A stretch of 26,573 bases of DNA, taken from positions 1 through 26,573 of the forward strand of contig JAITCX010000133.1 of assembly GCA_031282945.1 (NCBI GenBank). Reading direction: 5' to 3'. Position 1 is the stretch's first letter; each line of letters opens with the position of its first letter. This document shows positions 2,676 to 26,573 of this stretch, piece by piece. Source of the stretch: Elusimicrobiota bacterium (lineage in GTDB: Bacteria; Elusimicrobiota; Endomicrobiia; Endomicrobiales; Endomicrobiaceae). Position numbers and translations under genes: made by a program. Below the pieces are notes generated by a model. The model did no database searches. It was not told where the DNA came from and saw only the letters and a program-made list of their open reading frames with translations.

Positions 2676-4201
2676 TTTACGCTGCCTCCTGCCATCAATA
2701 ATCCAACTTCATTTTCATTTGTTTTAGAGGGGTCTAGATCGCCCACAATTTTGCCGTCATAAATTACATTGATGCGGTCGGAAACATCCAAAATTTCGTC
2801 CAACTCAAAACTCACCAAAAGCACAGCTTTGCCTTTGTCCCTTTGCGCTATCAAAGATTTATGCACAAACTCTATTGCGCCTACATCCAAACCTCTCGTG
2901 GGCTGAACCGCCACCAATAAAACTGGATCGTTTTCTATTTCTCTAGCGATAACAACTTTCTGTTGATTGCCGCCCGAGAGAGAACGCGCCAGAGAATGTT
3001 CGCAGTCTGCAGGTCTAATGTCAAATTTGTGGATGAGGGTTTTGGCATTATCAAAAATGTTCTTAAGCTTTAATAAAAGCCTGTCTGCAAATTTTGGGGC
3101 GGCGTACTTTTCCAAAATTAAATTTTCGCATATATCAAAATCCAAAACTAAACCGTATTTATGTCTGTCTTCTGGAATTGTGGCGATGCTGTTTGCCCTA
3201 ATATTGTGAGGAGGCGTGTTTTGAACTTGTTTGCCCTTGATAAGAATTTTTCCGCCGTCAGCTTTTGTAAGACCTGTGAGCGCCTCAATGAGTTCGCTTT
3301 GGCCGTTTCCGTCAATTCCTGCAATGCCCAAAATTTCTCCGGCTCTAACATTTAGAGATAGATTTTTCACTCTGTCTATCCCACGCGAATCTTTTACCCA
3401 CAAATCGCAAATTTCAAAAACTCTTTCTTTAGGTTGAGCAGGGGTCTTAGAAATGTGCAAAGAAACATCTCTTCCTACCATCATTTTTGCAAGGCTGTAC
3501 TCGTCTACGCCTTTGTCTTTAACATCAACGGTATCAATATAATTTCCGCGTCTGATGATTGTGCAGTAATCTGCAGATTTTATAATTTCTTTTAGCTTAT
3601 GGGTAATAATTATCACAGTTTTACCGTCTTGGGTGAGTTTGTGCATGGTATCTATAAGCTCGTCAATTTCATTGGGGGTTAAAACTGCAGTGGGCTCGTC
3701 TAAAATTAACGTTTGCGCGCCGCGGTAAAGACTTTTTAAAATTTCAACTTTTTGCTGAGTGGAAACGGACACATCGCATATTTTTGCATCGCCGTCCACT
3801 ATCATTCCATATTTTTCGCCAAGCTCTTTAATTTTTTCTTTTACAACTGCAGTGTCTATCACATCAAAAGCTTTGACGCTTTCCTTGCCCAACATTATAT
3901 TTTGAGCAATTGTAAAATTTTCCACCAACATAAAATGCTGATGAACCATCCCTATTCCATATTTTATCGCCACATTTGGATTTTTTATATATGCCAATTT
4001 TCCGTCTAAATAAATCTCGCCTTCGTCGGCCTCGTAGAGACCGTAGAGGATATTCATCAATGTGGATTTGCCCGCGCCGTTTTCACCTAAAAGAGCATGA
4101 ATAGTTTTTTTGCGGACATTCAAATTTACGCCATTTAAAGCCTTAAATGTTCCAAAAAATTTTGAAATGCTTTTCATACTTACAGCATAATTTTCGTCCA
4201 C
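2672..4201 (-). CDS. Nucleoside/sugar ABC transporter ATP-binding protein with tandem NBDs (NupA/YufO-like)
   Basis: Walker A GENGAGKST, 'ILDEPT', degenerate second Walker A GIDGNGQSEL, signature LSGGNQQK. Start placed at GTG 4201 because GGAGG lies 5 nt upstream; the ORF track starts at 4219. Confidence 0.92.
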   Translation of the reverse strand: MDENYAVSMKSISKFFGTFKALNGVNLNVRKKTIHALLGENGAGKSTLMNILYGLYEADEGEIYLDGKLAYIKNPNVAIKYGIGMVHQHFMLVENFTIAQNIMLGKESVKAFDVIDTAVVKEKIKELGEKYGMIVDGDAKICDVSVSTQQKVEILKSLYRGAQTLILDEPTAVLTPNEIDELIDTMHKLTQDGKTVIIITHKLKEIIKSADYCTIIRRGNYIDTVDVKDKGVDEYSLAKMMVGRDVSLHISKTPAQPKERVFEICDLWVKDSRGIDRVKNLSLNVRAGEILGIAGIDGNGQSELIEALTGLTKADGGKILIKGKQVQNTPPHNIRANSIATIPEDRHKYGLVLDFDICENLILEKYAAPKFADRLLLKLKNIFDNAKTLIHKFDIRPADCEHSLARSLSGGNQQKVVIAREIENDPVLLVAVQPTRGLDVGAIEFVHKSLIAQRDKGKAVLLVSFELDEILDVSDRINVIYDGKIVGDLDPSKTNENEVGLLMAGGSVK

Positions 4202-4227
4202 TGCGACCTCCCTTCTCATATGCGCTT

Positions 4228-4264
4228 AAAAAAACCGCAAGACGTTTTACGGTCTTGCGGTTTT
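4228..4264 (-). terminator. Intra-operon terminator/attenuator between the BMP lipoprotein and the ABC ATPase
   Basis: Perfect 13-bp stem AAAACCGCAAGAC (4231-4243) / GTCTTGCGGTTTT (4252-4264); ends in a T7 run on the minus strand. Confidence 0.75.
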
Positions 4265-4271
4265 AGCTAAA

Positions 4272-5306
4272 TTACAAACCTTTTATAAACTGCTGATACT
4301 GCGCATCAGTTATTGGAACAATAATTTGTCCATTTATAATTTTGTTTTCAATATCTTTTGTCTTTTGCAAAATGTCGGCTGGAACAAGTTTGCCGCTGGT
4401 TGGCGCAATGCCTACTCCGCCGTCTGAAAGACCCATTTCTACAGTGGTTCCGCCGAGCTTCTCGCCCGCCATAACGCGTTTTGTTACATCGTAAACGCCG
4501 ATATCAACATTTTTCAATGCGCTGGTTATAACATTATCAGGCGCCATATAATTCTGATCTAAGTCAACGCCGATAACCCACAAATTGCGCTCTTTTGCAG
4601 CTTCAATAACTCCTTGTCCAACGCCGCCTGCGGCATGGAAAATTACGTCAGCGCCGCTTGTATACATTTTCAAAGCGGCCGCTTTGCCTTTTGCCGCATC
4701 AGTAAAGGATTCCATAATTTGATAATCCACTTGAATTTTCTTTCCCATTTCTTTTGCGGCATACTGCACGCCTGCAAAATACCCATATTTAAATCTATTC
4801 ATCACTGGACTTTCCATTCCAATAATAAAGCCTACATGATTTGTTTTGGTCATATAAGCCGCAATGTAGCCGACTTCAAAAGAAGATTGTTCCGCTTTAA
4901 AAGTTACGCCGATCACATTTGGAACTGTTCCGTCTGGATATGTGTCGTCAACCAAAGCGAACAATTGATCTGGATTTGCCTGCGCGATTTGTTGGAGAGG
5001 ATCTTTCATCATAAATCCAATTGCCCAAATTATGTCTGCGCCTGCGTCAATTGACTTCTCCAAATTTGGAGCATAGTCGCTGCCTCTATGAGACTCAAGG
5101 AAACTAACCGTTACGCCCTCAGACTTAAGTTTTTCCATTCCCCCCCAAGCTGATTGGTTGAAAGATTGATCGTTTATTCCTCCAACATCCGTTACCATTG
5201 CAGCTTTAAACGCTCCATTGGCTGATTGGTCTTTTTTACCGCCGCAGCCGACAACCAAAACCGCTGCAACTGATAAAACTGCAACCAAAGACAAAAGTCT
5301 TTTCAT
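4272..5306 (-). CDS. BMP-family (PnrA/TmpC-like) nucleoside-binding lipoprotein
   Basis: 344 aa; lipobox 'LVVG-C'; motifs 'DVGGINDQSFNQSAWGG', 'FKAEQSSFEVGYIAA', 'DVIFHAAGGVGQGVIEAAKE', 'IGVDLDQ'; AAGGAG RBS. Confidence 0.92.
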   Translation of the reverse strand: MKRLLSLVAVLSVAAVLVVGCGGKKDQSANGAFKAAMVTDVGGINDQSFNQSAWGGMEKLKSEGVTVSFLESHRGSDYAPNLEKSIDAGADIIWAIGFMMKDPLQQIAQANPDQLFALVDDTYPDGTVPNVIGVTFKAEQSSFEVGYIAAYMTKTNHVGFIIGMESPVMNRFKYGYFAGVQYAAKEMGKKIQVDYQIMESFTDAAKGKAAALKMYTSGADVIFHAAGGVGQGVIEAAKERNLWVIGVDLDQNYMAPDNVITSALKNVDIGVYDVTKRVMAGEKLGGTTVEMGLSDGGVGIAPTSGKLVPADILQKTKDIENKIINGQIIVPITDAQYQQFIKGL

Positions 5307-5344
5307 AGTACTCTCCTTTTTTTTATTTTGCGCCCAAGGCGCAT

Positions 5345-6184
5345 TTATACAACTTTAACTTCATAAAAAAAATCTCGGCAATAATCAAATAATTTTTGCA
5401 TTTCCTCGGGGCTGGTATTTGGCGAGCGTGCAAAATCTCCTCTGACGCCGAAATTTCTAAAAGCTATAAGTTTTAGGCGCGCTTGCAAACTTTTTTTGCC
5501 TAAAAATTCTCTCAAGGCGTCCACAACATTTTTAGGCTGCATCATTGGAAAACAGACTATTCTAATTTCATATAATTTTTTTGCATCAAGCAAAAACAAA
5601 ATATTTTTTTTGACTGTATCATTATCTAAACTACTGCCGCGCGTTACGGTATGATAAGTATCATTATCCCATGATTTTAGATCTATCATGACGCCGTCTG
5701 TAAGAGAAAGCAGATCGGGATAGAGCGAAAAGTCGATGGTTCCGTTGGTGTCTATGAAACTGGAAAGGTTGGATTTTTTTGAAAGGCAAAAGAGGTCTGT
5801 TAAAAAAAAGGGGGCGAGCATACACTCGCCCCCTGATACAGTAATTCCGCTTATAAAGGGTAGATTATTTTGAATTTGGTCAAAAACTGCCATAGCCGGC
5901 ATTTTTGCAACTCTTGGAGAAGAAAAGTTTGGACAAATTTTTATGCAGGCATCGCATTCGCTACAAATTTCCTTTTTCCACAACACTTTTCCATTCTCCT
6001 TATGCAAAGCATTATTGGGACAGATTTTAACACATTTTGCGCAATTATTGCAAACTCTTTGCGTTTCTGGATTATGGCAGTAAATACAAGCCAAGTTGCA
6101 GCCTTGTAAAAAAACAACGCTTCTTGCGCCCGGTCCGTCCACAACGCTAAGAGGAATTATTTTGTTTACAATTGCCTCAATCAT
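5345..6184 (-). CDS. yjjW: YjjW-family glycyl-radical enzyme activating enzyme (radical SAM)
   Basis: 279 aa; 'SVVDGPGARSVVFLQGCNLACIYCHNPET' (CxxxCxxC); two ferredoxin-type motifs CNNCAKCVKICP and CSECDACIKICP; 'GITVSGGEC'; ATGA overlap with yjjI. Confidence 0.88.
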   Translation of the reverse strand: MIEAIVNKIIPLSVVDGPGARSVVFLQGCNLACIYCHNPETQRVCNNCAKCVKICPNNALHKENGKVLWKKEICSECDACIKICPNFSSPRVAKMPAMAVFDQIQNNLPFISGITVSGGECMLAPFFLTDLFCLSKKSNLSSFIDTNGTIDFSLYPDLLSLTDGVMIDLKSWDNDTYHTVTRGSSLDNDTVKKNILFLLDAKKLYEIRIVCFPMMQPKNVVDALREFLGKKSLQARLKLIAFRNFGVRGDFARSPNTSPEEMQKLFDYCRDFFYEVKVV

Positions 6185-7686
6185 ATCAACCTAACCTTCC
6201 TTTCAGCCAGTTTTGAAGCTTTATAATTGGGCGCTCCAAGCGCAACTGTGTCTTGCAAATTTGTTTCGCCCTTAAAGTATTTTTCCATTTCGCTTCTTTT
6301 TACAAGATAGCCCGTTATCCGCACAATATCGGCATCCTGCTCGTAAAAACTCATATACTGAACTCCCAAATTGAAAGCGCCTTTTACAATATCAACTAAA
6401 GCTTGAGAATTATTTTTTGCCGTTTGAGCTATTGGAAAAATATCGCCGACTCCCGCTGGAAAATAATGATGAAATTTTGCGCTGTGGCGTAAATGATCCA
6501 TAAAATTTTCAGGTTCATCGCCCACCGGAATTCTCACCCCTGAGGTTATGCCGATATCTGTGTCCAAACCAACTTGCGCATGCAAAACAAATTTGCCGCC
6601 TGTCAGAGGACTATAGAGCGCATCAAAACCAGCGACAATACTTGTAATTTTGTCCATAATTTTAATGCCCAGCTCGTCAGCTTGAGGCGAATTTCCGTAT
6701 TTTATATTTTTATCTCTCAGCAAAAAATTTACAGCTTCGGCAAGACCCGTCACGCCGAACATTCCAAGAAATCTATCCTTAGAAATAAAATTTTCGGCCG
6801 CCAAAAAACTGCTTTCAAAAAAGTTGGATTTCTCAACAATAAATTTAATGCGCTCGTTCATGTAATCTGCAATTAATTTCAAGCATTCCGGCAAAAGCTC
6901 GTTAAAGAAATGATCCATAGATTTAGCTTCTTTGGCAAGCTCGGTGAGCGTAATTCGGGTGAGCGTATAAGCCCCGCCTGAGAGCGGCAAAATATTGTAG
7001 CAGCTGCAAATGCCGTAATCAGCGCCGAAAGGTTTTTGATTTGCAATGTGGTTTGCAATTGCAGGGTTGGAACACATTAAAGACGTTTCTATAGCATATT
7101 TTAGAAAAGCCTCGTCTGTATTTTTCAGGTCGTATTTTATTGTGAGATTTGGCACGCAGTTTTTTAACTCGCGCTGCGTTTCCAAAATTAAATAGCCAAT
7201 TCTAGTGGCCTTGGGGCCGATATTTGCATGGCAAAAAGAATCGGTGATTGTTCTGTCCAAATAAGTTAAAAACAATTTTAGTTTGTAGCGGATCTCATCG
7301 TCTGTAAGGCCGTCAACGTATGGACTAAGCAGCTCGTCTAATTGACCGACATAGACGGGAAAACTTGTGATGGACGGCGTATGTCTATAAATTATTGCAA
7401 GATTTGTAAGCGCTTGATCTAAATTTTTTGCAGGACCAAGTCTTAAAAATTTGCTGCCCTCTTTTAAAAATTTTCCAAAATCAGCTTGAATGTAGCGCGG
7501 GCGGTACGGCGCATGCCCCTCCGCTAAATCGTTTATTGCGCCCGTTTCAAAATAATGTTTTGTCCTCGGGGGAATGTTTAAAACATCAATAGAGTTTTCG
7601 GCAAGTTTAGCAAGCGTTATAAGCTTTTGCTCGTAGGTAAGTTTTTTGGATGTGATAGTGTCATAAATTAGGTCATTAGCGTTCAT
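6181..7686 (-). CDS. yjjI: YjjI-family glycyl radical enzyme (DUF3029)
   Basis: 501 aa; 'EGHAPYRPRYI', 'HTPSITSFPVYVGQLD', 'FCHANIGP', 'CSCYNILPLSGG', C-terminal glycyl loop 'IVRITGYLVK'; GAGGAGG RBS. Confidence 0.88.
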   Translation of the reverse strand: MNANDLIYDTITSKKLTYEQKLITLAKLAENSIDVLNIPPRTKHYFETGAINDLAEGHAPYRPRYIQADFGKFLKEGSKFLRLGPAKNLDQALTNLAIIYRHTPSITSFPVYVGQLDELLSPYVDGLTDDEIRYKLKLFLTYLDRTITDSFCHANIGPKATRIGYLILETQRELKNCVPNLTIKYDLKNTDEAFLKYAIETSLMCSNPAIANHIANQKPFGADYGICSCYNILPLSGGAYTLTRITLTELAKEAKSMDHFFNELLPECLKLIADYMNERIKFIVEKSNFFESSFLAAENFISKDRFLGMFGVTGLAEAVNFLLRDKNIKYGNSPQADELGIKIMDKITSIVAGFDALYSPLTGGKFVLHAQVGLDTDIGITSGVRIPVGDEPENFMDHLRHSAKFHHYFPAGVGDIFPIAQTAKNNSQALVDIVKGAFNLGVQYMSFYEQDADIVRITGYLVKRSEMEKYFKGETNLQDTVALGAPNYKASKLAERKVRLI

Positions 7687-7750
7687 TGGATGCCTCCTCT
7701 AAATAAGCCCTCTCCAACATGTTTTCTCAGGTTGGATCTTCTAATTAAAA

Positions 7751-8686
7751 CTACTTTATATTTACAAATCCAACCGCTATTTTTGCGGCAAGATCTGCAT
7801 TGCTGTAGGCAAGCTGCATATTTGTTTCAAGCGATTTGCCGGCGGTGATATCTTTAATTTTGGAAAGTAAAAACGGCGTAACTTCTTTTCCCTTTATGCC
7901 TTTTTCTTGCGCTTCCTTGACAGCATTTTCTATCGCATCTGAAATTATTTTTTCATCCATTGCATATTCTTTTGGGACGGGATTGGCAACGACAATTCCA
8001 TTTTTAACGCCCATCAATTCATTGAAACGCATGGCCTGCGCTACAAATGTAGGATCGGGCACGGTGTGGTCTAAAGCGTAGCCGCTTGAGCGGGTAAAAA
8101 ATGCGGGAAAATCTTTTGTGTCGCCGATGCCGACAACGGGAACGCCTTTAGTTTCCAAAAATTCCAAAGTGAGTTTTATGTCTAAAATAGATTTGGCGCC
8201 CGAACATACAACGGTGACGGGAGTTCTGGAAAGCTCCTCTAAATCTGAAGAGATATCCATAGTTGTTTGCGCGCCGCGATGCACGCCGCCGATGCCGCCT
8301 GTGGCAAAAACATTGATGCCGCAGAGATTGGCAATACGCATTGTTGCAGACACCGTTGTGCCGCCCAGTTTGCGCCGCGCTAAGACCAGCGGAATATCTT
8401 TAGCGGCAACCTTTATAACATCTTTAGCTTTGGCCAAATCGTCCAGTTCCTGCTCAGTCATTCCAATTTTTATTTTGCCGTCAACCAAAGCGATGAGAGC
8501 GGCGGCGGCTCCCTGCGATTCTATGATGCTTTGCATTTTCAAAGCTGTTTGTTTATTTTCAGGATAAGGCATTCCATGCGTGATAATTGTGGATTCCAGC
8601 GCCACTACAGGAAGCCCATTTTTTATTGCTTGCTGAACTGATTTGCTGATGTCTACAAAATACAAATTAGGATCTTTAAGTGTCAT
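7751..8686 (-). CDS. psuG: Pseudouridine-5'-phosphate glycosidase (PsuG/IndA family)
   Basis: 311 aa; 'PVVALESTIITHGMPYP', 'ATGGIGGVHRG', 'DISSDL', 'CSGAKSILD', 'GKEVTPFLL'; AAGGAG RBS. Confidence 0.93.
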   Translation of the reverse strand: MTLKDPNLYFVDISKSVQQAIKNGLPVVALESTIITHGMPYPENKQTALKMQSIIESQGAAAALIALVDGKIKIGMTEQELDDLAKAKDVIKVAAKDIPLVLARRKLGGTTVSATMRIANLCGINVFATGGIGGVHRGAQTTMDISSDLEELSRTPVTVVCSGAKSILDIKLTLEFLETKGVPVVGIGDTKDFPAFFTRSSGYALDHTVPDPTFVAQAMRFNELMGVKNGIVVANPVPKEYAMDEKIISDAIENAVKEAQEKGIKGKEVTPFLLSKIKDITAGKSLETNMQLAYSNADLAAKIAVGFVNIK

Positions 8687-19783: not shown

Positions 19784-19816
19784 AAAAAAGCCCCGCCGTT
19801 TTCGGCGGGGTTTTTT
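19784..19816. terminator. Bidirectional intrinsic terminator between the convergent beta-barrel and res genes
   Basis: AAAAAAG-CCCCGCCG-TTTT-CGGCGGGG-TTTTTT. Confidence 0.85.
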
Positions 19817-19867: not shown

Positions 19868-22636
19868 TTATTCTATTTCCAATTCAGCTTTAAAAGCTTT
19901 TTCAAAATCAGCGCGATGTTTTTCATTATAAAAAGGCAGACCGATGAGCCGCCAATTTTTATTTTTTGTTTCTGTCGGTTCTTGTTTTTTCTCCACTTTT
20001 GAAATTGCCGTTAACATTTCCTGTTTCCAATCATCTTTCTCCAAAAGATGATCGCCTTTTGGTTCTATATAAAAAATATAATCAATATTATTTTTTCTCA
20101 TACATAAAACAAAATCAGGTTCAAAACCCTCTGCGTAATGGGCATTGTTCAAATAAGAATAGAGCTTTAATTTTCCTTCATTTCTTGCCAAGTAAATATT
20201 TTCCCAGCCCGCTTTCTTTAAAGTATTTATAAAACCATGAAACCATTTTACAAAAGATTTCTCCTCTGCAGTTCCAAAATTGTCGTTATAGACATACCAC
20301 TCATAGCGCGACAAATCCAATTGGTATTTTTCATTTTTTGGATTGTTTTGAGAAAAGCCGATTTCGCCGTCCCGCTCTTTTTTATATTTTCTCACAACTT
20401 CCTCTAAAAAATAATCTTTATATGGTTTTGATACAAAATATTCTTTCACTTTAATTCTTTTTTGTTCTTGTTTAACTTCTGTTTCCGCTTCCCTGCAAAC
20501 GCAATTTGCAATTTTCAATAAATCATCTCTGGAAAATGAATTTTCATCTTTATAAGTTTTAACTAAAACTGGATATTTGCCCAACAGCGCAATATATTCA
20601 CTCAGGCTTTTTAGTTCTGGATAAGCTTGTTTTAGACGATCAAAAGTTAAATTTTTATTGGAATTTATTGCAAATCTAATAATATTATTATATGGAACTA
20701 AATCTGCAAGCGTTTTGTTTGAAATAATTTTTAGCTCCGTTTCATCGTCTTGCAAATCGGATTTTAGATCAATTTTATTTTCATTTTCAAAGATCTCATG
20801 GGTAAAACTTTTCCCGCTTTCAAAAATAATTTCCGCTTGATTTTTTTGCGCATAATTTGGAATTGGCAAATCCTCTTTGGGATTGGTTTTAGAGATCGGT
20901 TCAATTTCATTTTCATCCATTAGCCCCAATCTCCCCTGATTGTCATACTTGAGATCTTTTTTGGAATATATTCCATTTACATATACTGAACCATTGTTAT
21001 ACAAGTCTGTTTTTGTAAAATCTTTTTTCATTTTAAGACTTATTTTCACAACTTCATCTCCCGCTATTAGACCTTCTTTATTTAAAGTGTGGCGAATCTC
21101 AGAAATATAACGATGATCATTTTTGCAGTGATAATGCATTTGTTCAATAATGCGCAGAGGTTCGGTTTCATTTTCATCAAATTTGCGGCGATATTTATCC
21201 TCGCCCTGATATTCAAAAGGAAAATATCTGGCGCCGCGGCCGATCAATTGAGCTTCCGAAATTGTTGTTTTGCCCGCCTTATAACTATCGCCTCTTTTGT
21301 ATTCGCCGTCGCGTTCATCATAAAGCCTGACGATATCAAACAAATTTAAAACATCCCAACCTTCATTTAAAATATTTACTGCAAAAATTGCCCGCACGGG
21401 ATTGTCCTGTTGTTCCAAAGTATTTAAAAGTTTATCCTGTCCTGCAACCAATCTTTCATTTGAGCGGTCATGAATTATTACTCTGTTTGTATCCAAAGCA
21501 AAATCCATTTTTAACTCACTTGCTAGATCGTCTAACTCTTTAAATTTAGAGCAAAAATACACAGCGGCTTTTTTTAAAATATTGCTATCGTCATCGGCTT
21601 TTTGAGCATTAAAAATTTTTTTAATTTTAGCGCCGCTTAAATTTGAAATCATTTTGTTAAATTTATCAAAAGCTTGCTTGCTCATTTCAGTCGGCTTTTT
21701 ATTATCTTTCGTTCCTTTGCTTTTAAATAAAATTATAGGTTTTAAAGCTATTTTATGCTCTTGGGCGATATGTTTTCTGTATTGCGAAATCAAAACGGCT
21801 CTCAACATTATTCCCTCTAAATCATTGTCCAAATCAATGCTGATAGCATTTGTAAAAACGTCTTTTGAATATCCGTCCTCGCGAAATTTTTTCAATGCAT
21901 AATCAAATAAAAGTTTATCCTCATAAATTTTTTTTGTGGCGGGATCGTCTAGTCCCGCGGTAGCGGTAAACTCAAACAAATAATTTTTTGCATTAGCTTT
22001 TAAAACTTCCTGCACAGAATTGCCCCAATTATTATCCTCATCTTTTTCAGCTTTTGTTGGATTATTGTGATGCGCTTCGTCTGCAAGCATTACAACAGAA
22101 ATATCCCTATCTTTAAAAGTATCAATTGAAATTGAATTTTCTGTTGTAGAGTCAGGCGATATTAATTGATGCAGTTTATGAATTGTAGAAAGTTTAATAT
22201 TTATTGCATGGTTATCGGTATTATCAAAAGTTTCCACTTGTTTTATGGGAACAATTCGGCCGTCAATTTCAATTTTTTGCGCAAACTGAAATTTCGGCGA
22301 TGATGAATTAATAAAATTATCTTTGCTTTTTATAATTATGTTTACTGAATTTACAAAAAACCAAAAATTTCTTTGACCTCTTTTATACATTTCCAAAATT
22401 AAAGCCGCCATAATTAAAGTTTTGCCGCTGCCCGTTGCCATTTGCCAAAGCAAATGATTTTGTTTATCAATTAAATTTTTATCAAAATCATAAAGGGGTT
22501 TATCGCTAAAATAATACAGCGCTTTGGAAATCGCTTCTTGCTGATACGGTCTTAAGGGATAGGCGAGGTTATCGGCGATATAGTCTGGTATTGGGGGAAA
22601 CTCGTCTTTGTGCGTGTTTAAAATTTTTTCTAACAT
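19868..22636 (-). CDS. res: Type III restriction endonuclease Res subunit (SF2 helicase plus C-terminal PD-(D/E)xK nuclease)
   Basis: 'LRPYQQEA', Walker A 'MATGSGKT', 'LADEAHH', 'EFTATA', 'LNEGWDV', 'QLIGRGARYFP', 'FEPDFVL...IEPKG'; GAGGAG RBS before ATG 22636. Confidence 0.9.
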   Translation of the reverse strand: MLEKILNTHKDEFPPIPDYIADNLAYPLRPYQQEAISKALYYFSDKPLYDFDKNLIDKQNHLLWQMATGSGKTLIMAALILEMYKRGQRNFWFFVNSVNIIIKSKDNFINSSSPKFQFAQKIEIDGRIVPIKQVETFDNTDNHAINIKLSTIHKLHQLISPDSTTENSISIDTFKDRDISVVMLADEAHHNNPTKAEKDEDNNWGNSVQEVLKANAKNYLFEFTATAGLDDPATKKIYEDKLLFDYALKKFREDGYSKDVFTNAISIDLDNDLEGIMLRAVLISQYRKHIAQEHKIALKPIILFKSKGTKDNKKPTEMSKQAFDKFNKMISNLSGAKIKKIFNAQKADDDSNILKKAAVYFCSKFKELDDLASELKMDFALDTNRVIIHDRSNERLVAGQDKLLNTLEQQDNPVRAIFAVNILNEGWDVLNLFDIVRLYDERDGEYKRGDSYKAGKTTISEAQLIGRGARYFPFEYQGEDKYRRKFDENETEPLRIIEQMHYHCKNDHRYISEIRHTLNKEGLIAGDEVVKISLKMKKDFTKTDLYNNGSVYVNGIYSKKDLKYDNQGRLGLMDENEIEPISKTNPKEDLPIPNYAQKNQAEIIFESGKSFTHEIFENENKIDLKSDLQDDETELKIISNKTLADLVPYNNIIRFAINSNKNLTFDRLKQAYPELKSLSEYIALLGKYPVLVKTYKDENSFSRDDLLKIANCVCREAETEVKQEQKRIKVKEYFVSKPYKDYFLEEVVRKYKKERDGEIGFSQNNPKNEKYQLDLSRYEWYVYNDNFGTAEEKSFVKWFHGFINTLKKAGWENIYLARNEGKLKLYSYLNNAHYAEGFEPDFVLCMRKNNIDYIFYIEPKGDHLLEKDDWKQEMLTAISKVEKKQEPTETKNKNWRLIGLPFYNEKHRADFEKAFKAELEIE

Positions 22637-22637
22637 T

Positions 22638-24649
22638 TTAGCTCCTCTCATAAAATTTTTCATTTAATTTTTTATCAATTTCTGCAATATTTTTATCCTC
22701 ATCATCTATATCCGCAAAATTGACGTACAAAGTATTTGCGTCTACCACCTCTTTCAATATTTCCTTCTTTTTAGAGATATTTAATTTCTCAAAATCATCA
22801 AACTCCTCGGGGTCTACTCTATAACTCAAAAAACTTGAATCTTTAGCTTTTTCCAATAATGCATTTAATTCCTCATCGCTTTTTGCATTGTCTACTTCAT
22901 CTATAAAATCTTGAGAATCGTTTGCCAAACTCATGTAAACAAAACTTGCGGCGTCTTGATTATTTTCTATTACTTTCGGCAAACTTTCCAATTGCAATTT
23001 AACTTGCCCCTCAATTTGTTCTATGCCGATAAAACGTCTTTTCATTTTCATTGCGGCAACTGAAGTTGTCCCGCTGCCGCTAAAAAAATCAAGGACTAGA
23101 TCATTTTCTTTTGTAGCTAAATTCAAGCACCACTCAATTAATCCCTCTGGTTTTGGATACATATTTGAGACTTTTTCATCAAGTCTATTATTCATTGCTA
23201 TCGTGCCTTGTGAATTTGGAAATTGGTCAAGCCAAGTTTTTTGGCGTTGATACTTATTTTGATCCTCATCTTTTGCAAAATAATGTTTTATTTTTATTAT
23301 TCCATTTTCTACAATTAAATCTTTATAATCGCTATCAAATTTTTTCTTGCTCCACATCCAACACCCATCATCGCCCTTATGTTTTTTAGGAATATACATA
23401 TTTATCGTTTTTTTAGGTTTTTCATAACTCAAAACACCGCAGTTATTTTCATATATTTCATAATACAAATTCGGCCGCGCCGAGCGAGTTCCATGCGGTC
23501 CATTATCTTGTAAGGGAACGGTATAATATTTGCCTCGTTCATCTTTATATGGATATGATTTTTGACCAACTATCGTTTTATTATAAATTGAATCCTTTGT
23601 TTTACTATATATCAATAAATAGTCATGAAGTTTTTGCAATTCGTGGTCGGATTTAGTAGTTACCGACCCTGCAGTTTTTCTTGGACAAGTTGCTACATAG
23701 TTTTCAACTCCAAAAATCTCATCCATTAAAAGCCGCATATACGCCTGTCCGTCATCGCCCATTGAAACCATAATTGAACCGTCATCCGCCAATAATTCTT
23801 TTGCAATAGTTAAGCGGTTTCTCATAAATGTAAGCCATGTAGATAAAGGAAAGTTTGAATTATACCTGAAGGTGTCGCTGTCTCTTACATCATTAAAATA
23901 GTAAGGCGGATCAATATAGATCAATTTCACTTTCCCGGCAAAACGACTTTTCAATGAATGCAAAACCACTAAATTATTTCCCTTAATAATTAAATTGTCT
24001 TTATCAAAATCTATATTTTCTAAACTGCCTGCGCTTACTTCGCATTTAAATTTTTCTATTGTTAAGCCGCCGTCTATTTTTTGATTTTTTTTAATCCCTT
24101 GATATTTTTTAAAATTTACAAAAACTTTCTCGTCTAAAAGTCTGTTGATTTGTTCGGGGGCGAGAATTTCATTAAAAAAGATTTCCTGTCTTTTTTGATC
24201 GTCTTTACTTTGGCCTCCTTCCAGTATGCAGTCTTTATAAGGCCAATTTAAAACTATGTCTTGGCTGTCGTCTAAAAATCTTTCGCCGACTGCCAAACCA
24301 ATGCGGTTTTTATATTTAGTAAAAGAATCTTTTAAATATTCTTTTTTATTTATAAATGTTAAAAAAGTATCAAGTTTAAAAATCCAAGTGTTTTCATTTA
24401 TGGCGGTAAACAACCATTTTTTTATTTGTTCATTTGAGCTAAGAAGCGATAGCAAATCTTTATCAAACTCTCTAGCTTTTTGCGATACTAAATTTTTATT
24501 AATTATTTTTTTGTCGGGGTCGTCAGGTAAGTTTATGAGGTATTCGGTTTTTGAGTTTAATAATTTTTCAAGGGAAGTTTGCAGAGTTTCTAACTCTCCG
24601 TACCCCCCACCCCCCCCCCCCCGTGTAAATTATCCCTGTTTTTTGACAT
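22638..24649 (-). CDS. mod: Type III R-M DNA methyltransferase Mod, frameshifted (phase-OFF) at a poly-G tract
   Basis: 'KVKLIYIDPPY' and 'VLDFFSGSGTT' (beta-class N6-adenine MTase). The frame stays open upstream of the track's TTG 24455 up to the G tract. The likely start is ATG 24649 (GGAGG 8 nt upstream), which is out of frame with G13. Confidence 0.85.
24603..24622 (-). repeat. Homopolymer tract G13-T-G6 (C6-A-C13 on +) in the 5' end of mod
   Basis: C at 24603-24608, A at 24609, C at 24610-24622. Confidence 0.95.
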
Positions 24650-24826
24650 TTTTTCATCCTCCCTTTTCTTATTTTTTACCGCTATTTTTAATAAATTGCT
24701 GAAAACTTTATTTTCATTTTGGTAAATCTTAAAAAACATTGAAGGATGAAAAGTGGGTTAGGGGGGATTAGGGGGCCAAAAGCATTCTCGTTTTTATGTA
24801 TTTTTTTAAGATTCATTTTATTACAA

Positions 24827-25341
24827 ATCAATATTTTGTAGACTTTTCTTTTACTATTTTTTACTTTAATATCATCAATTTAGCAAATTTACTAAAATAA
24901 TATCTTTAAAAATCAGGAGGATAAATTTATGATTGGAGCAATAGTCGGCGATATTGTATGGTCGCGTTTTGAATTTAATAATTATAAAAGCAAAGAATTT
25001 GAACTTTTTACTAAAGATTGTTTTGCTACCGATGACACCATTATGACTTTAGCTATCGCTAAAGCTATTATGGAAACGTCTAAAAATGTAAAACAAAATA
25101 AAAATGAATACGGCGCCGCCTTCCATCATAAATTGGGAGAGCTGAGTGTAAAGTATATGCAGGAAATCGGCAGAAAATATCCCACTTGCGGTTTTGGGGG
25201 AATGTTTTTCAAATGGGTATTTAGCGCAAATCCCGAGCCTTACAATAGTTATGGCAATGGAGCGGCGATGCGCATTAGTCCAATTGGTTTTATAGCAAAC
25301 AATATTTTGCAAGCGCAAGAACTTGCAAAAACGGTTACGCA
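24827..25341 (+). repeat. Copy 1 of the duplicated upstream region plus ADP-ribosylglycohydrolase 5' part (copy 2 at 26047 to window end)
   Basis: ATCAATATTTTGTA...AATCAGGAGGAT.AATTTATGATTGGAGCAATAG is shared by both copies; homology continues through the coding sequence. End coordinate is approximate. Confidence 0.9.
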
Positions 25342-25774
25342 GGTGACGCACAATCATCCCGAGGGAATTAAGGGCGCTCAAGCTGTTGCAGGCGCCGTTT
25401 TTATGGCCCTAAACTGCGCTACAAAGAGAGAAATTAAACAATATATCATAGACAATTATTATCCATTGGATTTTCGTATAGACGATATCCGCAATACATA
25501 TTCTTTCAATGAAACATGTCAGGAAACTGTGCCGCAAGCTATTGAATGTTTTCTGGAATCACACTCTTTTGAGGATGCCCTCCGCATCGGAGTTTCCCTT
25601 GGGGGCGACACCGACACCATATGCGCAATAACGGGCGCTATTGCGGAAGCTTATTACGGAGCGCCTGCGGCCGTAAAAGAAAAAGCGCTCAAGTTTTTAG
25701 ACGATGAACTTTTGACTATTTATAAGCAATGGAGAGAATTTGTATCCGCTAAATACGAGAATATTTTCCTTTAA
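24929..25774 (+). CDS. ADP-ribosylglycohydrolase family protein (DraG/ARH), copy 1
   Basis: 281 aa; 'GAIVGDIV', 'TDDT', 'SYGNGAAMR', 'THNHPEG', 'GGDTDTICAITG'; AGGAGG RBS. Confidence 0.9.
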   Translation: MIGAIVGDIVWSRFEFNNYKSKEFELFTKDCFATDDTIMTLAIAKAIMETSKNVKQNKNEYGAAFHHKLGELSVKYMQEIGRKYPTCGFGGMFFKWVFSANPEPYNSYGNGAAMRISPIGFIANNILQAQELAKTVTQVTHNHPEGIKGAQAVAGAVFMALNCATKREIKQYIIDNYYPLDFRIDDIRNTYSFNETCQETVPQAIECFLESHSFEDALRIGVSLGGDTDTICAITGAIAEAYYGAPAAVKEKALKFLDDELLTIYKQWREFVSAKYENIFL

Positions 25775-25800: not shown

Positions 25801-26049
25801 TTATTTATTATTAATTTCTCTATAAAATTTTTCATTTAATTTTTTATCAATTTCTGCAATATTTTTATCCTCATCGTCTATATCTGTAAAATTTACATAT
25901 AGGGTATTGGCATCTACAATTTCTTTTAATATTTCCTTCTTTTGAGAAATATTAAATTCATCAAAACCATTAAATTTATGAGGGTCTATTCTATAGCTTA
26001 AAAAACTTGAATTTTTAGCTTTTTTCAATAATGCATTTAATTGTTCATC
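25801..26049 (-). pseudogene. Duplicated 3' fragment of mod
   Basis: 'KAKNSSFLSYRIDP...KKEILKEIVDANTLYVNFTDIDDEDKNIAEIDKKLNEKFY' matches the Mod C-terminus; 25822-25875 is identical to 22650-22703. Confidence 0.88.
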
Positions 26050-26145
26050 AATATTTTGTATACTTTTTTTACTATTTTTTACTTTAATATCATTATTTAG
26101 CAAATTTACTAAAATAATATCTTTAAAAATCAGGAGGATCAATTT

Positions 26146-26573
26146 ATGATTGGAGCAATAGCAGGCGATATTATAGGGTCTCGTTTTGAATTTAATAATT
26201 GCAAAAGCAAAGAATTTAAACTTTTTAGCAAAGATTGTTCTGCTACCGACGACAGCATAATGACCTTAGCTATCGCTAAAGCCATTATGGAAGCCGCTAA
26301 AAATAAAATGCAAAACAAAAATGAATACGACGTCGCTTTTCATGACGCATTAGGCAAGCTGACTGTAAAGCATATGCAAGAATTGGGACGCAAATACCCC
26401 GACTGCGGTTTTGGCGGTATGTTTTTCAAATGGGTATTTAGCGCAAATCCCGAGCCTTACAATAGTTATGGCAATGGAGCGGCGATGCGCATTAGTTCTG
26501 TTGGATTTATAGCAAACAATATTTTGCAAGCGCAGCAGCTTGCAAAAACCGTTACAGAAGTGACGCACACTCA
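26146..26573 (+). CDS. ADP-ribosylglycohydrolase family protein, copy 2 (cut by the window end)
   Basis: ATG 26146 with AGGAGG; translates MIGAIAGDIIGSRFEFNN...TDDS...SYGNGAAMR...VTHT and is open to the edge. Not in the ORF track because it has no stop in the window. Confidence 0.88.
   Translation, partial: MIGAIAGDIIGSRFEFNNCKSKEFKLFSKDCSATDDSIMTLAIAKAIMEAAKNKMQNKNEYDVAFHDALGKLTVKHMQELGRKYPDCGFGGMFFKWVFSANPEPYNSYGNGAAMRISSVGFIANNILQAQQLAKTVTEVTHT

What the first reader, a model, noticed from the sequence alone, without database searches (positions are those of the whole stretch)
22638..24662. Phase-variable type III mod captured in the OFF state: candidate phasevarion
Seen: GGAGG (24662-24658), 8 nt, then ATG TCA AAA AAC AGG GAT AAT TTA CAC followed by G13-T-G6. 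With G13 the frame gives MSKNRDNLHGGGGVGGTES and stops at TAG 24592-24590. With G14 or G11 it continues ...GYGELETLQTSLEKLLNSKTEYLINLPDDPDKKIINKNLVSQKAREFDKDLLSLLSSNEQ... into the full MTase (670 aa for G14). The other upstream ATG (24657) is also out of frame. Established: SSR-switched type III mod genes control phasevarions in host-adapted bacteria, and Res cannot cut without Mod, so OFF is non-toxic. Here res looks intact, so both methylome and restriction would switch. To my knowledge this is not described for the inferred lineage.
Basis: partly seen in the sequence, partly recalled or inferred. Interest (0 to 1): 0.75.

Follow-up and report, generated by a model that had tools for sequence, protein, structure and literature searches.

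The report
Poly-G switch in Endomicrobium methylase gene
A termite-gut Endomicrobium-like bacterium has a DNA-methylase gene of a restriction system that a slippery run of 13 G's puts out of frame by one base; this looks like a well-known kind of random on/off switch, seen here in a lineage where it has not been described, but the switching itself could not be shown.

Summary
On the minus strand, GGAGG is followed after 8 nt by ATG 24649, then nine codons, then G13-T-G6. That frame stops after 19 codons. The +1 frame is an intact 663-codon Type III mod gene, followed by an intact res gene and a terminator.

In silico, G11, G14 or G17 restore a 669-671 aa Mod. Intact relatives start right at the conserved N-terminus and have no tract, so the tract sits in an added leader.

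The window is one contig of a termite-gut Endomicrobiaceae MAG. That MAG holds about 20 further G/C runs of 12-23 nt. They lie in a second Type III mod, a Type I hsdS, PMP-repeat surface proteins and sugar-modifying enzymes, which is a Campylobacter-like set of contingency loci. Similar runs occur in 34 of 81 family genomes.

The most likely reading is a slipped-strand on/off switch of a known kind. An independent assembly of run X1 also gives G13. Only contigs, not raw reads, were available, and no second copy of the gene exists in the databases searched. Tract-length variation, an ON variant and any phasevarion therefore remain untested.

I class it as a new member of a known kind. The scan has found the same kind on other DNA many times.

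The parts
24815..24842 (-). Candidate sigma-70-like promoter for mod-res (TCTACA-16-TAAAAT)
   Evidence: Consensus scan only. The number of hits in the region is not above the shuffled background, so the evidence is weak.
24658..24662 (-). Shine-Dalgarno GGAGG serving ATG 24649 with an 8-nt spacer
   Evidence: Read directly.
24655..24657 (-). Alternative ATG that abuts the SD (spacer 0). It is in frame with mod only at G12 or G15.
   Evidence: Its use is not shown and is probably poor.
24647..24649 (-). Likely natural start codon of mod. It is in frame with mod at G11, G14 or G17.
24603..24622 (-). G13-T-G6 tract: G13 at 24622-24610, T at 24609, G6 at 24608-24603. It is the hypermutable element and would encode a poly-Gly linker when ON.
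   Evidence: A Logan contig of run X1 spans it with no gaps.
24590..24592 (-). TAG that ends the 19-codon OFF-state peptide
22638..24629 (-). mod reading frame, 663 codons plus TAA. It encodes a Type III N6-adenine methyltransferase with PF12564 at residues 56-112, PF01555 at 234-544, DPPY at 240 and FSGSG at 516.
   Evidence: (PADLOC MTase_III, E 5e-140).
24453..24455 (-). TTG used as the start by the public annotations (605 aa). It has no SD and would remove the conserved N-terminus.
19868..22663 (-). res, the Type III restriction subunit. It is 931 aa from ATG 22663. The more likely form is 922 aa from ATG 22636, which has its own GAGGAG SD and follows the mod TAA directly. Motifs: GSGKT78, DEAH195, PD..ExK849.
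   Evidence: (REase_III, E 8e-120).
19791..19810 (-). Intrinsic terminator closing the mod-res operon (8 G-C pairs followed by a T run)

Best explanation
This is a Type III restriction-modification operon (mod-res). Its methyltransferase gene is gated by a hypermutable poly-G run placed in a short, non-conserved N-terminal leader.

Proposed mechanism (inferred): slipped-strand mispairing during replication changes G13 by one base at high frequency. At G11, G14 or G17 the SD-served ATG 24649 reads through a poly-Gly linker into a 669-671 aa Mod. At G13 translation stops after 19 codons.

Without Mod there is no methylation. Type III Res also depends on Mod to recognise DNA, so there is no restriction either, and the OFF state is harmless. 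The assembled (majority) state is OFF.

The switch is one of about twenty poly-G/C contingency loci in this Endomicrobiaceae genome. The most likely benefit is population-level bet-hedging of defence and methylation specificity. Epigenetic control of other genes (a phasevarion) is a possible but untested extra.

Shown: the anatomy, the frame arithmetic, the intactness of both genes and the genome-wide tract repertoire. Inferred: slippage, switching and consequence.
For: The anatomy and frames were read directly. ON and OFF lengths were computed.

Mod and Res are bona fide Type III subunits with all catalytic motifs. The mod frame has no stop in 663 codons, whereas the other frames are full of stops.

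Intact homologues, including the two other Endomicrobiaceae copies (G005, G012), begin with M-QNLL..L..LL at the point where the window's frame reads ELETLQTSLEKLL. They have no tract, so the tract lies in a dispensable added leader.

In the whole MAG the length distribution of G/C runs is bimodal: 240 runs of 6, 51 of 7, 8 of 8, 7 of 9 and 3 of 10, then about 17 runs of 12-23. These long runs sit at 5' ends or inside several genes:
- a second Type III mod (C48, G15, with a 998-aa res);
- a Type I hsdS (C203, C14 between the two recognition domains);
- three PMP-repeat surface proteins;
- an FkbM methyltransferase, a Methyltransf_11 enzyme, a radical-SAM enzyme and an acyltransferase.
At least one of these genes is in frame across its tract (C7). 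Several are off by one base.

Runs of 12 or more G's occur in 34 of 81 family genomes, including near-finished assemblies.

An independent assembler (Logan) on run X1 gives the same G13-T-G6, with no gaps.

The tract passes the published operational criterion for a phase-variable mod gene, a mononucleotide run of at least 9 (PMC5909438).
Against: No variation in tract length was seen. Only contigs of the run were available, and contigs drop minority variants. No second copy of this gene exists in the protein or contig collections searched, so no ON allele was observed.

The X1 contig differs from the window in a 13-SNP block, yet it has the same tract length. This is weak evidence for stability, or for one shared population.

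R-M genes are known to decay massively in endosymbiotic Endomicrobia (PMC4760077). A deleted mod remnant lies 1.2 kb away.

An intact res makes an OFF-to-ON switch on an unmethylated chromosome potentially risky.
Confidence: 0.65

Rival explanations
1. The consensus tract length is wrong. The tract is real, but the dominant genotype is G14 or G11, so the gene is ON. In this reading G13 is a short-read stutter or assembly artefact. The gene could still be phase-variable, and only 'captured OFF' would fall.
For: The source is a metagenome-assembled genome with about 18-28x word depth here. Long G runs are prone to PCR and sequencing stutter (general knowledge). Many contigs of this MAG break at or near long G/C runs, and four contigs start with G/C runs of 12-75 nt that may be two-colour poly-G artefacts.
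Against: Two different assemblers give G13-T-G6 with no indel (window versus Logan contig). They do use overlapping or related read data.
Confidence: 0.17
2. This is a fixed pseudogene. The R-M system is being lost, as in endosymbiotic Endomicrobia, and the frameshift is simply the first inactivating lesion.
For: In 'Ca. Endomicrobium trichonymphae' Rs-D17, 37 of 46 R-M genes are pseudogenes (PMC4760077). An internally deleted mod copy lies next door at 25818-26049.
Against: The only lesion lies exactly in a 13-nt hypermutable run. The following 663 codons and the whole of res are intact, with all motifs. The same design recurs in other R-M and surface-protein genes of the genome.
Confidence: 0.1
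3. Expression happens without any DNA change. RNA-polymerase slippage or ribosomal frameshifting on the G run yields some full-length Mod from the G13 template, so the gene is constitutively expressed at a low level.
For: Long homopolymers can cause transcriptional slippage (general knowledge, best documented for A/T runs). Nothing specific was found here.
Against: There is no frameshift-stimulating structure or slippery heptamer. No RNA data hold this locus. This would act on top of DNA-level slippage, not replace it.
Confidence: 0.05
4. The tract is irrelevant. Mod is made from the internal TTG 24455 (605 aa), as in the JGI and NCBI annotations.
For: Both public annotations call this ORF.
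Against: There is no SD before the TTG. The product would lack about 45 N-terminal residues that align with the N-termini of all intact homologues. Gene callers pick this start only because the true one is out of frame.
Confidence: 0.03

Closest known systems
Phase-variable Type III mod genes with mononucleotide G[n] tracts: Helicobacter pylori modH/modJ/modL and Campylobacter upsaliensis modU (Atack et al. 2018, PMC5909438)
   Same: A Type III mod gene with a poly-G run inside the ORF. A one-base change in length toggles between the full-length protein and an early stop. The tract exceeds the survey's threshold of 9 nt. There are several independently gated R-M genes in one small genome.
   Different: The protein is only distantly related; the best solved-structure matches are Mbo45V at 5e-31 and EcoP15I Mod at 2e-21. 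The host is an insect-gut symbiont of phylum Elusimicrobiota, not a vertebrate pathogen. The tract sits in an added N-terminal leader. Switching, methylation motif and regulon are all unmeasured here.
Campylobacter jejuni poly-G/C contingency loci (29 loci in NCTC11168, PMC4965091; includes the Type IIG R-M cj0031, PMC4889913)
   Same: A small, low-G+C genome with a few dozen long G/C runs. The runs are concentrated in surface-structure, sugar-modification and R-M genes.
   Different: A different phylum and ecology. Here the evidence is a single draft MAG with no tract-length population data. Some runs at contig ends may be artefacts.
R-M systems of Endomicrobium (Zheng et al. 2015, PMC4760077; Izawa et al. 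2016, PMC5174739)
   Same: The same bacterial family. R-M genes are abundant, many are annotated as pseudogenes, and the R-M loci are rearranged or duplicated.
   Different: Those papers interpret disrupted R-M genes as decay. They do not mention homopolymers, frameshifts at repeats or phase variation. Here the single lesion lies in a hypermutable run.
Haemophilus influenzae lic1 type multi-start translational switch (recalled from memory, not checked here)
   Same: Two start codons in different frames upstream of one repeat tract, so that different tract lengths could give strong, weak or no expression (ATG 24649 versus ATG 24657).
   Different: lic1 uses a tetranucleotide repeat. Here the second ATG abuts the SD and may not be used at all.

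Membership tests
Type III restriction-modification system | Mod subunit: beta-class N6-adenine methyltransferase with motif IV (DPPY) before motif I (FxGxG) and a recognition domain between them | tested here: met
   PF01555 at E 2.4e-37. DPPY at residue 240 and FSGSG at 516. PADLOC MTase_III at E 5e-140. PDB matches to Mbo45V and EcoP15I Mod.
Type III restriction-modification system | Type III-specific Mod N-terminal domain | tested here: met
   PF12564 TypeIII_RM_meth at E 5e-17, residues 56-112.
Type III restriction-modification system | Res subunit: SF2 helicase motifs plus a C-terminal PD-(D/E)xK nuclease | tested here: met
   PF04851 at E 3.9e-26. PADLOC REase_III at E 8e-120. GSGKT78, DEAH195 and PD..ExK849.
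Type III restriction-modification system | mod followed by res in one operon | tested here: met
   The res ATG 22636 follows the mod TAA directly and has its own SD. A single terminator lies after res.
Type III restriction-modification system | Site-specific hemimethylation and ATP-dependent cleavage | not testable with these tools
   This needs biochemistry or kinetic sequencing data.
SSR phase-variable mod gene (criteria of PMC5909438) | Mononucleotide repeat of at least 9 nt within the mod ORF | tested here: met
   G13 at 24622-24610, ten codons after the start.
SSR phase-variable mod gene (criteria of PMC5909438) | A change of one repeat unit toggles between the full-length ORF and early termination | tested here: met
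   In silico, G11, G14 and G17 give 669-671 aa and all other lengths give 18-28 aa.
SSR phase-variable mod gene (criteria of PMC5909438) | Tract length differs among cells, strains or samples, with both ON and OFF seen | tested here: inconclusive
   Only Logan contigs were available. One contig shows G13 and minority variants are invisible. No other copy of the gene was found in any collection.
Phasevarion (phase-variable regulon) | ON and OFF states differ in genome methylation and in the expression of a set of genes | not testable with these tools
   No methylome or transcriptome data hold this locus.

The most novel reading that the evidence does not exclude
Termite-gut Endomicrobiaceae, which are symbionts and not pathogens, may run a Campylobacter-like, genome-wide poly-G/C contingency system. 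In this genome it would gate at least three R-M specificity genes (two Type III mod, one Type I hsdS) together with PMP-like surface proteins. If so, part of what has been published as R-M 'pseudogenes' and decay in Endomicrobia would be reversible OFF states of a bet-hedging defence and methylome system. This mod gene may also be a three-level switch, using two start codons in different frames.
Probability: 0.3. Interest if true: 0.6.

Novelty: new member of a known kind. Interest (0 to 1): 0.38.

Why it matters
Repeat-gated Type III methyltransferases are well established in host-adapted pathogens and are predicted in many other bacteria, so the mechanism is not new.

What this case would add is its setting. 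The host is an insect-gut symbiont lineage of phylum Elusimicrobiota, whose many broken R-M genes have so far been read as genome decay. The MAG carries a whole set of long G/C runs in R-M, surface-protein and sugar-modification genes, and similar runs occur in a third or more of the family's genomes. If these runs switch, then three things follow:
- pseudogene counts for these symbionts are inflated;
- their phage defence and methylation are heterogeneous within populations;
- stochastic switching is part of life in the termite gut or inside its flagellates.

It also matters for annotation. Both public annotations call a truncated 605-aa Mod from an internal TTG.

Tried and rejected
1. Looked for tract-length variation in reads. 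Only one run (X1, termite gut metagenome) holds the locus, and it is stored as contigs. One contig spans the tract with G13-T-G6 and no indel.

2. Looked for other copies of the gene to compare tract lengths.
- The protein search finds only the window's own product; the next hit is 51% identical.
- The cluster members are the JGI and NCBI calls of the same contig.
- Two exact-pattern scans of metagenome contigs with the tract flanks found nothing.
- The scan of species-representative genomes found nothing closer than 49%.
- Forty relatives gave at best 40% identity.

3. Asked whether relatives' orthologues carry a tract. Only two of 80 family genomes have this Mod subtype, and neither has a tract. 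Conservation of the switch across species is therefore not available as evidence.

4. Considered the TTG-24455 start. Rejected: there is no SD and the conserved N-terminus would be lost.

5. Looked at a poly-G run next to methyltransferase fragments in the near-finished relative G041. The run lies in frame in a separate 184-codon ORF upstream, and the locus is too degraded to interpret. I dropped it.

6. Asked whether the 13-SNP block in the X1 contig (23997-24171) comes from a paralogue. There is no paralogue of that segment in the MAG, so it is probably strain variation. It remains unresolved.

7. The supplement of the Atack 2018 survey is not held as text, so I could not check whether any Elusimicrobia entry is listed there.

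Full report
OBSERVATION

- GGAGG at 24662-24658.
- An 8-nt spacer, then ATG at 24649.
- Nine codons (MSKNRDNLH).
- G13 at 24622-24610, T at 24609 and G6 at 24608-24603.

In this frame translation ends at TAG 24592-24590 after 19 codons. The frame displaced by +1 is open for 663 codons, from 24629 to the TAA at 22640-22638 (P0002). The other frames of the same stretch are littered with stops.

G13 is not a chance feature. The next longest G/C run in the 26.6-kb window (36.7% G+C) is 7.

WHAT THE GENES ARE

P0002 carries the Type III Mod N-terminal domain PF12564 and the N6/N4 methyltransferase domain PF01555. It matches PADLOC MTase_III at 5e-140 and has DPPY at 240 and FSGSG at 516. Its nearest solved relatives are Mbo45V and EcoP15I Mod.

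The next gene, at 19868-22663, is a Type III Res. It has PF04851, matches PADLOC REase_III at 8e-120, and carries GSGKT78, DEAH195 and a C-terminal PD..ExK motif. It most likely starts at ATG 22636. That codon follows the mod stop directly (TAAAATG) and has its own GAGGAG. It is also the start used by NCBI, giving 922 aa.

A strong terminator at 19810-19791 closes the operon. The G+C content of mod and res is 32.5-33%, slightly below the neighbouring genes. This is usual for R-M islands.

WHERE THE TRUE START IS

The public annotations (JGI and NCBI, same contig) call a 605-aa product from TTG 24455. That codon has no Shine-Dalgarno sequence.

An alignment with eleven intact homologues shows that their N-termini align with residues 11-17 of the open frame, at ELETLQTSLEKLL. 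The TTG start would therefore delete about 45 homologous residues.

Only two other Endomicrobiaceae genomes carry this Mod subtype (G005, G012). Both begin M(V)QNLL(D/E)DLK.. directly, preceded by an SD and with no G run. So MSKNRDNLH-(G)n-YG is an added leader, and the repeat sits where poly-Gly of variable length should be harmless.

FRAME ARITHMETIC

Changing only the tract length in silico gives these products from ATG 24649:
- G11, G14 and G17: 669, 670 and 671 aa.
- All other lengths: 18-28 aa.

A second ATG, at 24657, abuts the SD with no spacer. It is in frame with mod at G12 and G15, giving 672 and 673 aa. The observed 3n+1 class is therefore the only one in which neither ATG reads into mod. 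If ATG 24657 is used at all, the switch would have three levels. This is speculative because the spacing is unfavourable.

ORGANISM AND GENOME CONTEXT

The window is the whole of contig C56 of a MAG: 1.51 Mb, 252 contigs, 85.5% complete, 1.7% contamination. The only public run that holds the locus is a termite-gut metagenome.

The housekeeping LL-diaminopimelate aminotransferase on the same contig is 74-83% identical to proteins of Endomicrobium and Elusimicrobiota MAGs. The lineage is therefore Endomicrobiaceae.

Across the MAG the length distribution of G/C homopolymers is bimodal. It falls from 240 runs of 6 nt to 3 runs of 10 nt. About 17 runs of 12-23 nt then follow, plus four runs of 12-75 nt at contig starts that may be sequencing artefacts.

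The long internal runs are placed as follows:
- C48, G15: in the 5' region of a second complete Type III system. Its mod has PF01555 and PF18273, and it has a 998-aa res.
- C203, C14: between the two recognition domains of the second hsdS of a Type I hsdM-hsdR-hsdS locus.
- C58, C192 and C148: at or before the 5' ends of three Chlamydia-PMP-repeat surface proteins.
- C170: an FkbM methyltransferase.
- C92: a Methyltransf_11 enzyme.
- C7: a radical-SAM enzyme, in frame across its G13.
- C2: an acyltransferase-3.
- C131: an OmpA-domain giant protein.

These are the gene classes that carry poly-G contingency loci in Campylobacter (PMC4965091, PMC8355987).

Runs of 12 or more G's occur in 34 of 81 family genomes and in 9 of 15 genera. 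One relative with only four contigs has 17 runs of 11 or more, and a single-contig genome has two. In those genomes the runs sit at the 5' ends of radical-SAM, GDSL and PMP-repeat ORFs. The lineage as a whole therefore maintains long G/C runs in specific genes.

IS THE OFF STATE REAL?

A Logan contig of run X1 (734 nt, word depth 27.6) spans 23956-24689 with no gap, and no indel is listed at the tract. A second assembler thus reproduces G13-T-G6.

That contig differs from the window by 13 substitutions clustered at 23997-24171. The MAG has no paralogue of this segment. It may therefore represent a slightly different strain with the same tract length.

This lowers the odds of a simple assembly error, but it says nothing about minority lengths, because contigs drop them. 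Raw reads could not be examined. No second copy of the gene exists in the protein collection, in the metagenome contigs or in the representative genomes. Tract variability and an ON allele, which are the defining properties of phase variation, remain untested.

MECHANISM (best reading, confidence about 0.65)

Slipped-strand mispairing at G13 would move ATG 24649 in and out of the mod frame. The cited survey quotes rates of 1.8-13.5 x 10^-3 for G9 tracts (PMC5909438).

OFF cells would make a 19-aa peptide and no Mod. They would therefore have no methylation. Type III Res acts only in complex with Mod (established for EcoP15I-type enzymes), so they would have no restriction either. The roughly 1.95 kb of untranslated mod RNA may also lower res expression through polarity (inferred).

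ON cells would methylate and restrict. Because res is intact, an OFF-to-ON switch meets an unmethylated chromosome. How self-cleavage would be avoided is unknown.

The likely benefit is heterogeneity of defence and methylation specificity within the population. Three independently gated R-M loci in this genome would multiply that heterogeneity. Regulation of other genes (a phasevarion) is possible, but nothing here speaks to it.

RIVALS

- The consensus length is wrong and the gene is really ON (about 0.17). This would not remove the switch.
- It is a fixed pseudogene in a lineage known for R-M decay (about 0.10). Rs-D17 has 37 of 46 R-M genes as pseudogenes (PMC4760077), and a deleted mod remnant lies at 25818-26049. 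Against this, the only lesion sits in the hypermutable run and both genes are otherwise intact.
- Transcriptional or translational slippage bypasses the frameshift (about 0.05).
- Mod is made from the internal TTG start (about 0.03).

COMPARISON WITH WHAT IS KNOWN, AND NOVELTY

The design matches the G[n]-gated Type III mod genes of H. pylori (modH, modJ, modL) and C. upsaliensis (modU). It also meets the operational criterion of the REBASE survey, which found SSRs in 662 of 3805 Type III mod genes (17.4%), including environmental species (PMC5909438).

Membership in Type III R-M is met on every sequence criterion. Membership in 'phase-variable mod' is met on repeat length and frame logic, but variability is untested. 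'Phasevarion' is untestable here.

No paper in the searched library combines Endomicrobium with phase variation. None of the listed hits of the wider search mentions Elusimicrobia together with phase-variation terms. The two papers on Endomicrobium R-M systems do not mention homopolymers or frameshifts.

This scan has already reported the same kind of switch on other DNA in at least 23 genomes.

VERDICT

This is a new member of a known kind, of modest interest in itself. The genome-wide and family-wide poly-G repertoire in a symbiont lineage is the more interesting lead.

Noticed in passing
window 25818-26049 (-) and 26020-26573 (+); also G000 contig C114:1176-1363: There is a second, internally deleted copy of the mod-ARH unit. 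The last ~230 nt of mod (85% identical to 22645-22877; the protein is 78% identical to Mod residues 583-661) are joined directly to a copy of the intergenic region plus the ADP-ribosylglycohydrolase gene (86% identical to 24801-25356). The deletion removed the tract and nearly all of mod. A third mod 3' fragment lies on contig C114.
   Followed up: partly
G000 contig C48 (L068): tract 8179-8193, mod frame 6134-8272 (-), res 3052-6048 (-): A second complete Type III system in the same MAG has a G15 run in the 5' region of mod (PF01555 plus EcoP15I C-terminal domain). The contig ends 80 nt upstream of the run, so the start codon and the ON/OFF state cannot be read.
   Followed up: partly
G000 contig C203 (L074): C14 at 6497-6510: This is a Type I locus, hsdM-hsdR-hsdS, followed by a second hsdS. 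A C14 run splits that second hsdS exactly between its two recognition domains. The present length would give a half-size HsdS.
   Followed up: partly
G000 contigs C58 (G18), C192 (G16), C148 (C10); relative G010 locus L094: Giant Chlamydia-PMP-repeat surface proteins (1005+, 1739 and 252+ codons) each have a long G/C run at or just upstream of the 5' end. A single-contig relative has a G13 run 126 nt upstream of a PMP-repeat ORF.
   Followed up: partly
G000 contigs C102:1-75, C157:1-38, C220:11-53, C235:1-12: Four contigs begin with poly-C runs of 12-75 nt. These are either assembly breaks inside very long tracts or poly-G artefacts of two-colour Illumina chemistry. I excluded them from the tract count.
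   Followed up: no
window 23997-24171: The Logan contig of run X1 differs from the window at 13 clustered positions inside mod (codons ~153-211) and is identical on both sides. There is no paralogue in the MAG. It is probably a second strain or a recombined allele in the sample.
   Followed up: partly
relative G041 (1.1 Mb, 4 contigs), e.g. C1:1086722-1086735: This near-finished small Endomicrobiaceae genome has 17 G/C runs of 11 nt or more and 20 PF01555 methyltransferase matches, many of them with internal stops. One G14 run lies about 170 nt upstream of methyltransferase fragments. It would be worth re-examining whether some published R-M 'pseudogenes' in this lineage are repeat-gated.
   Followed up: partly
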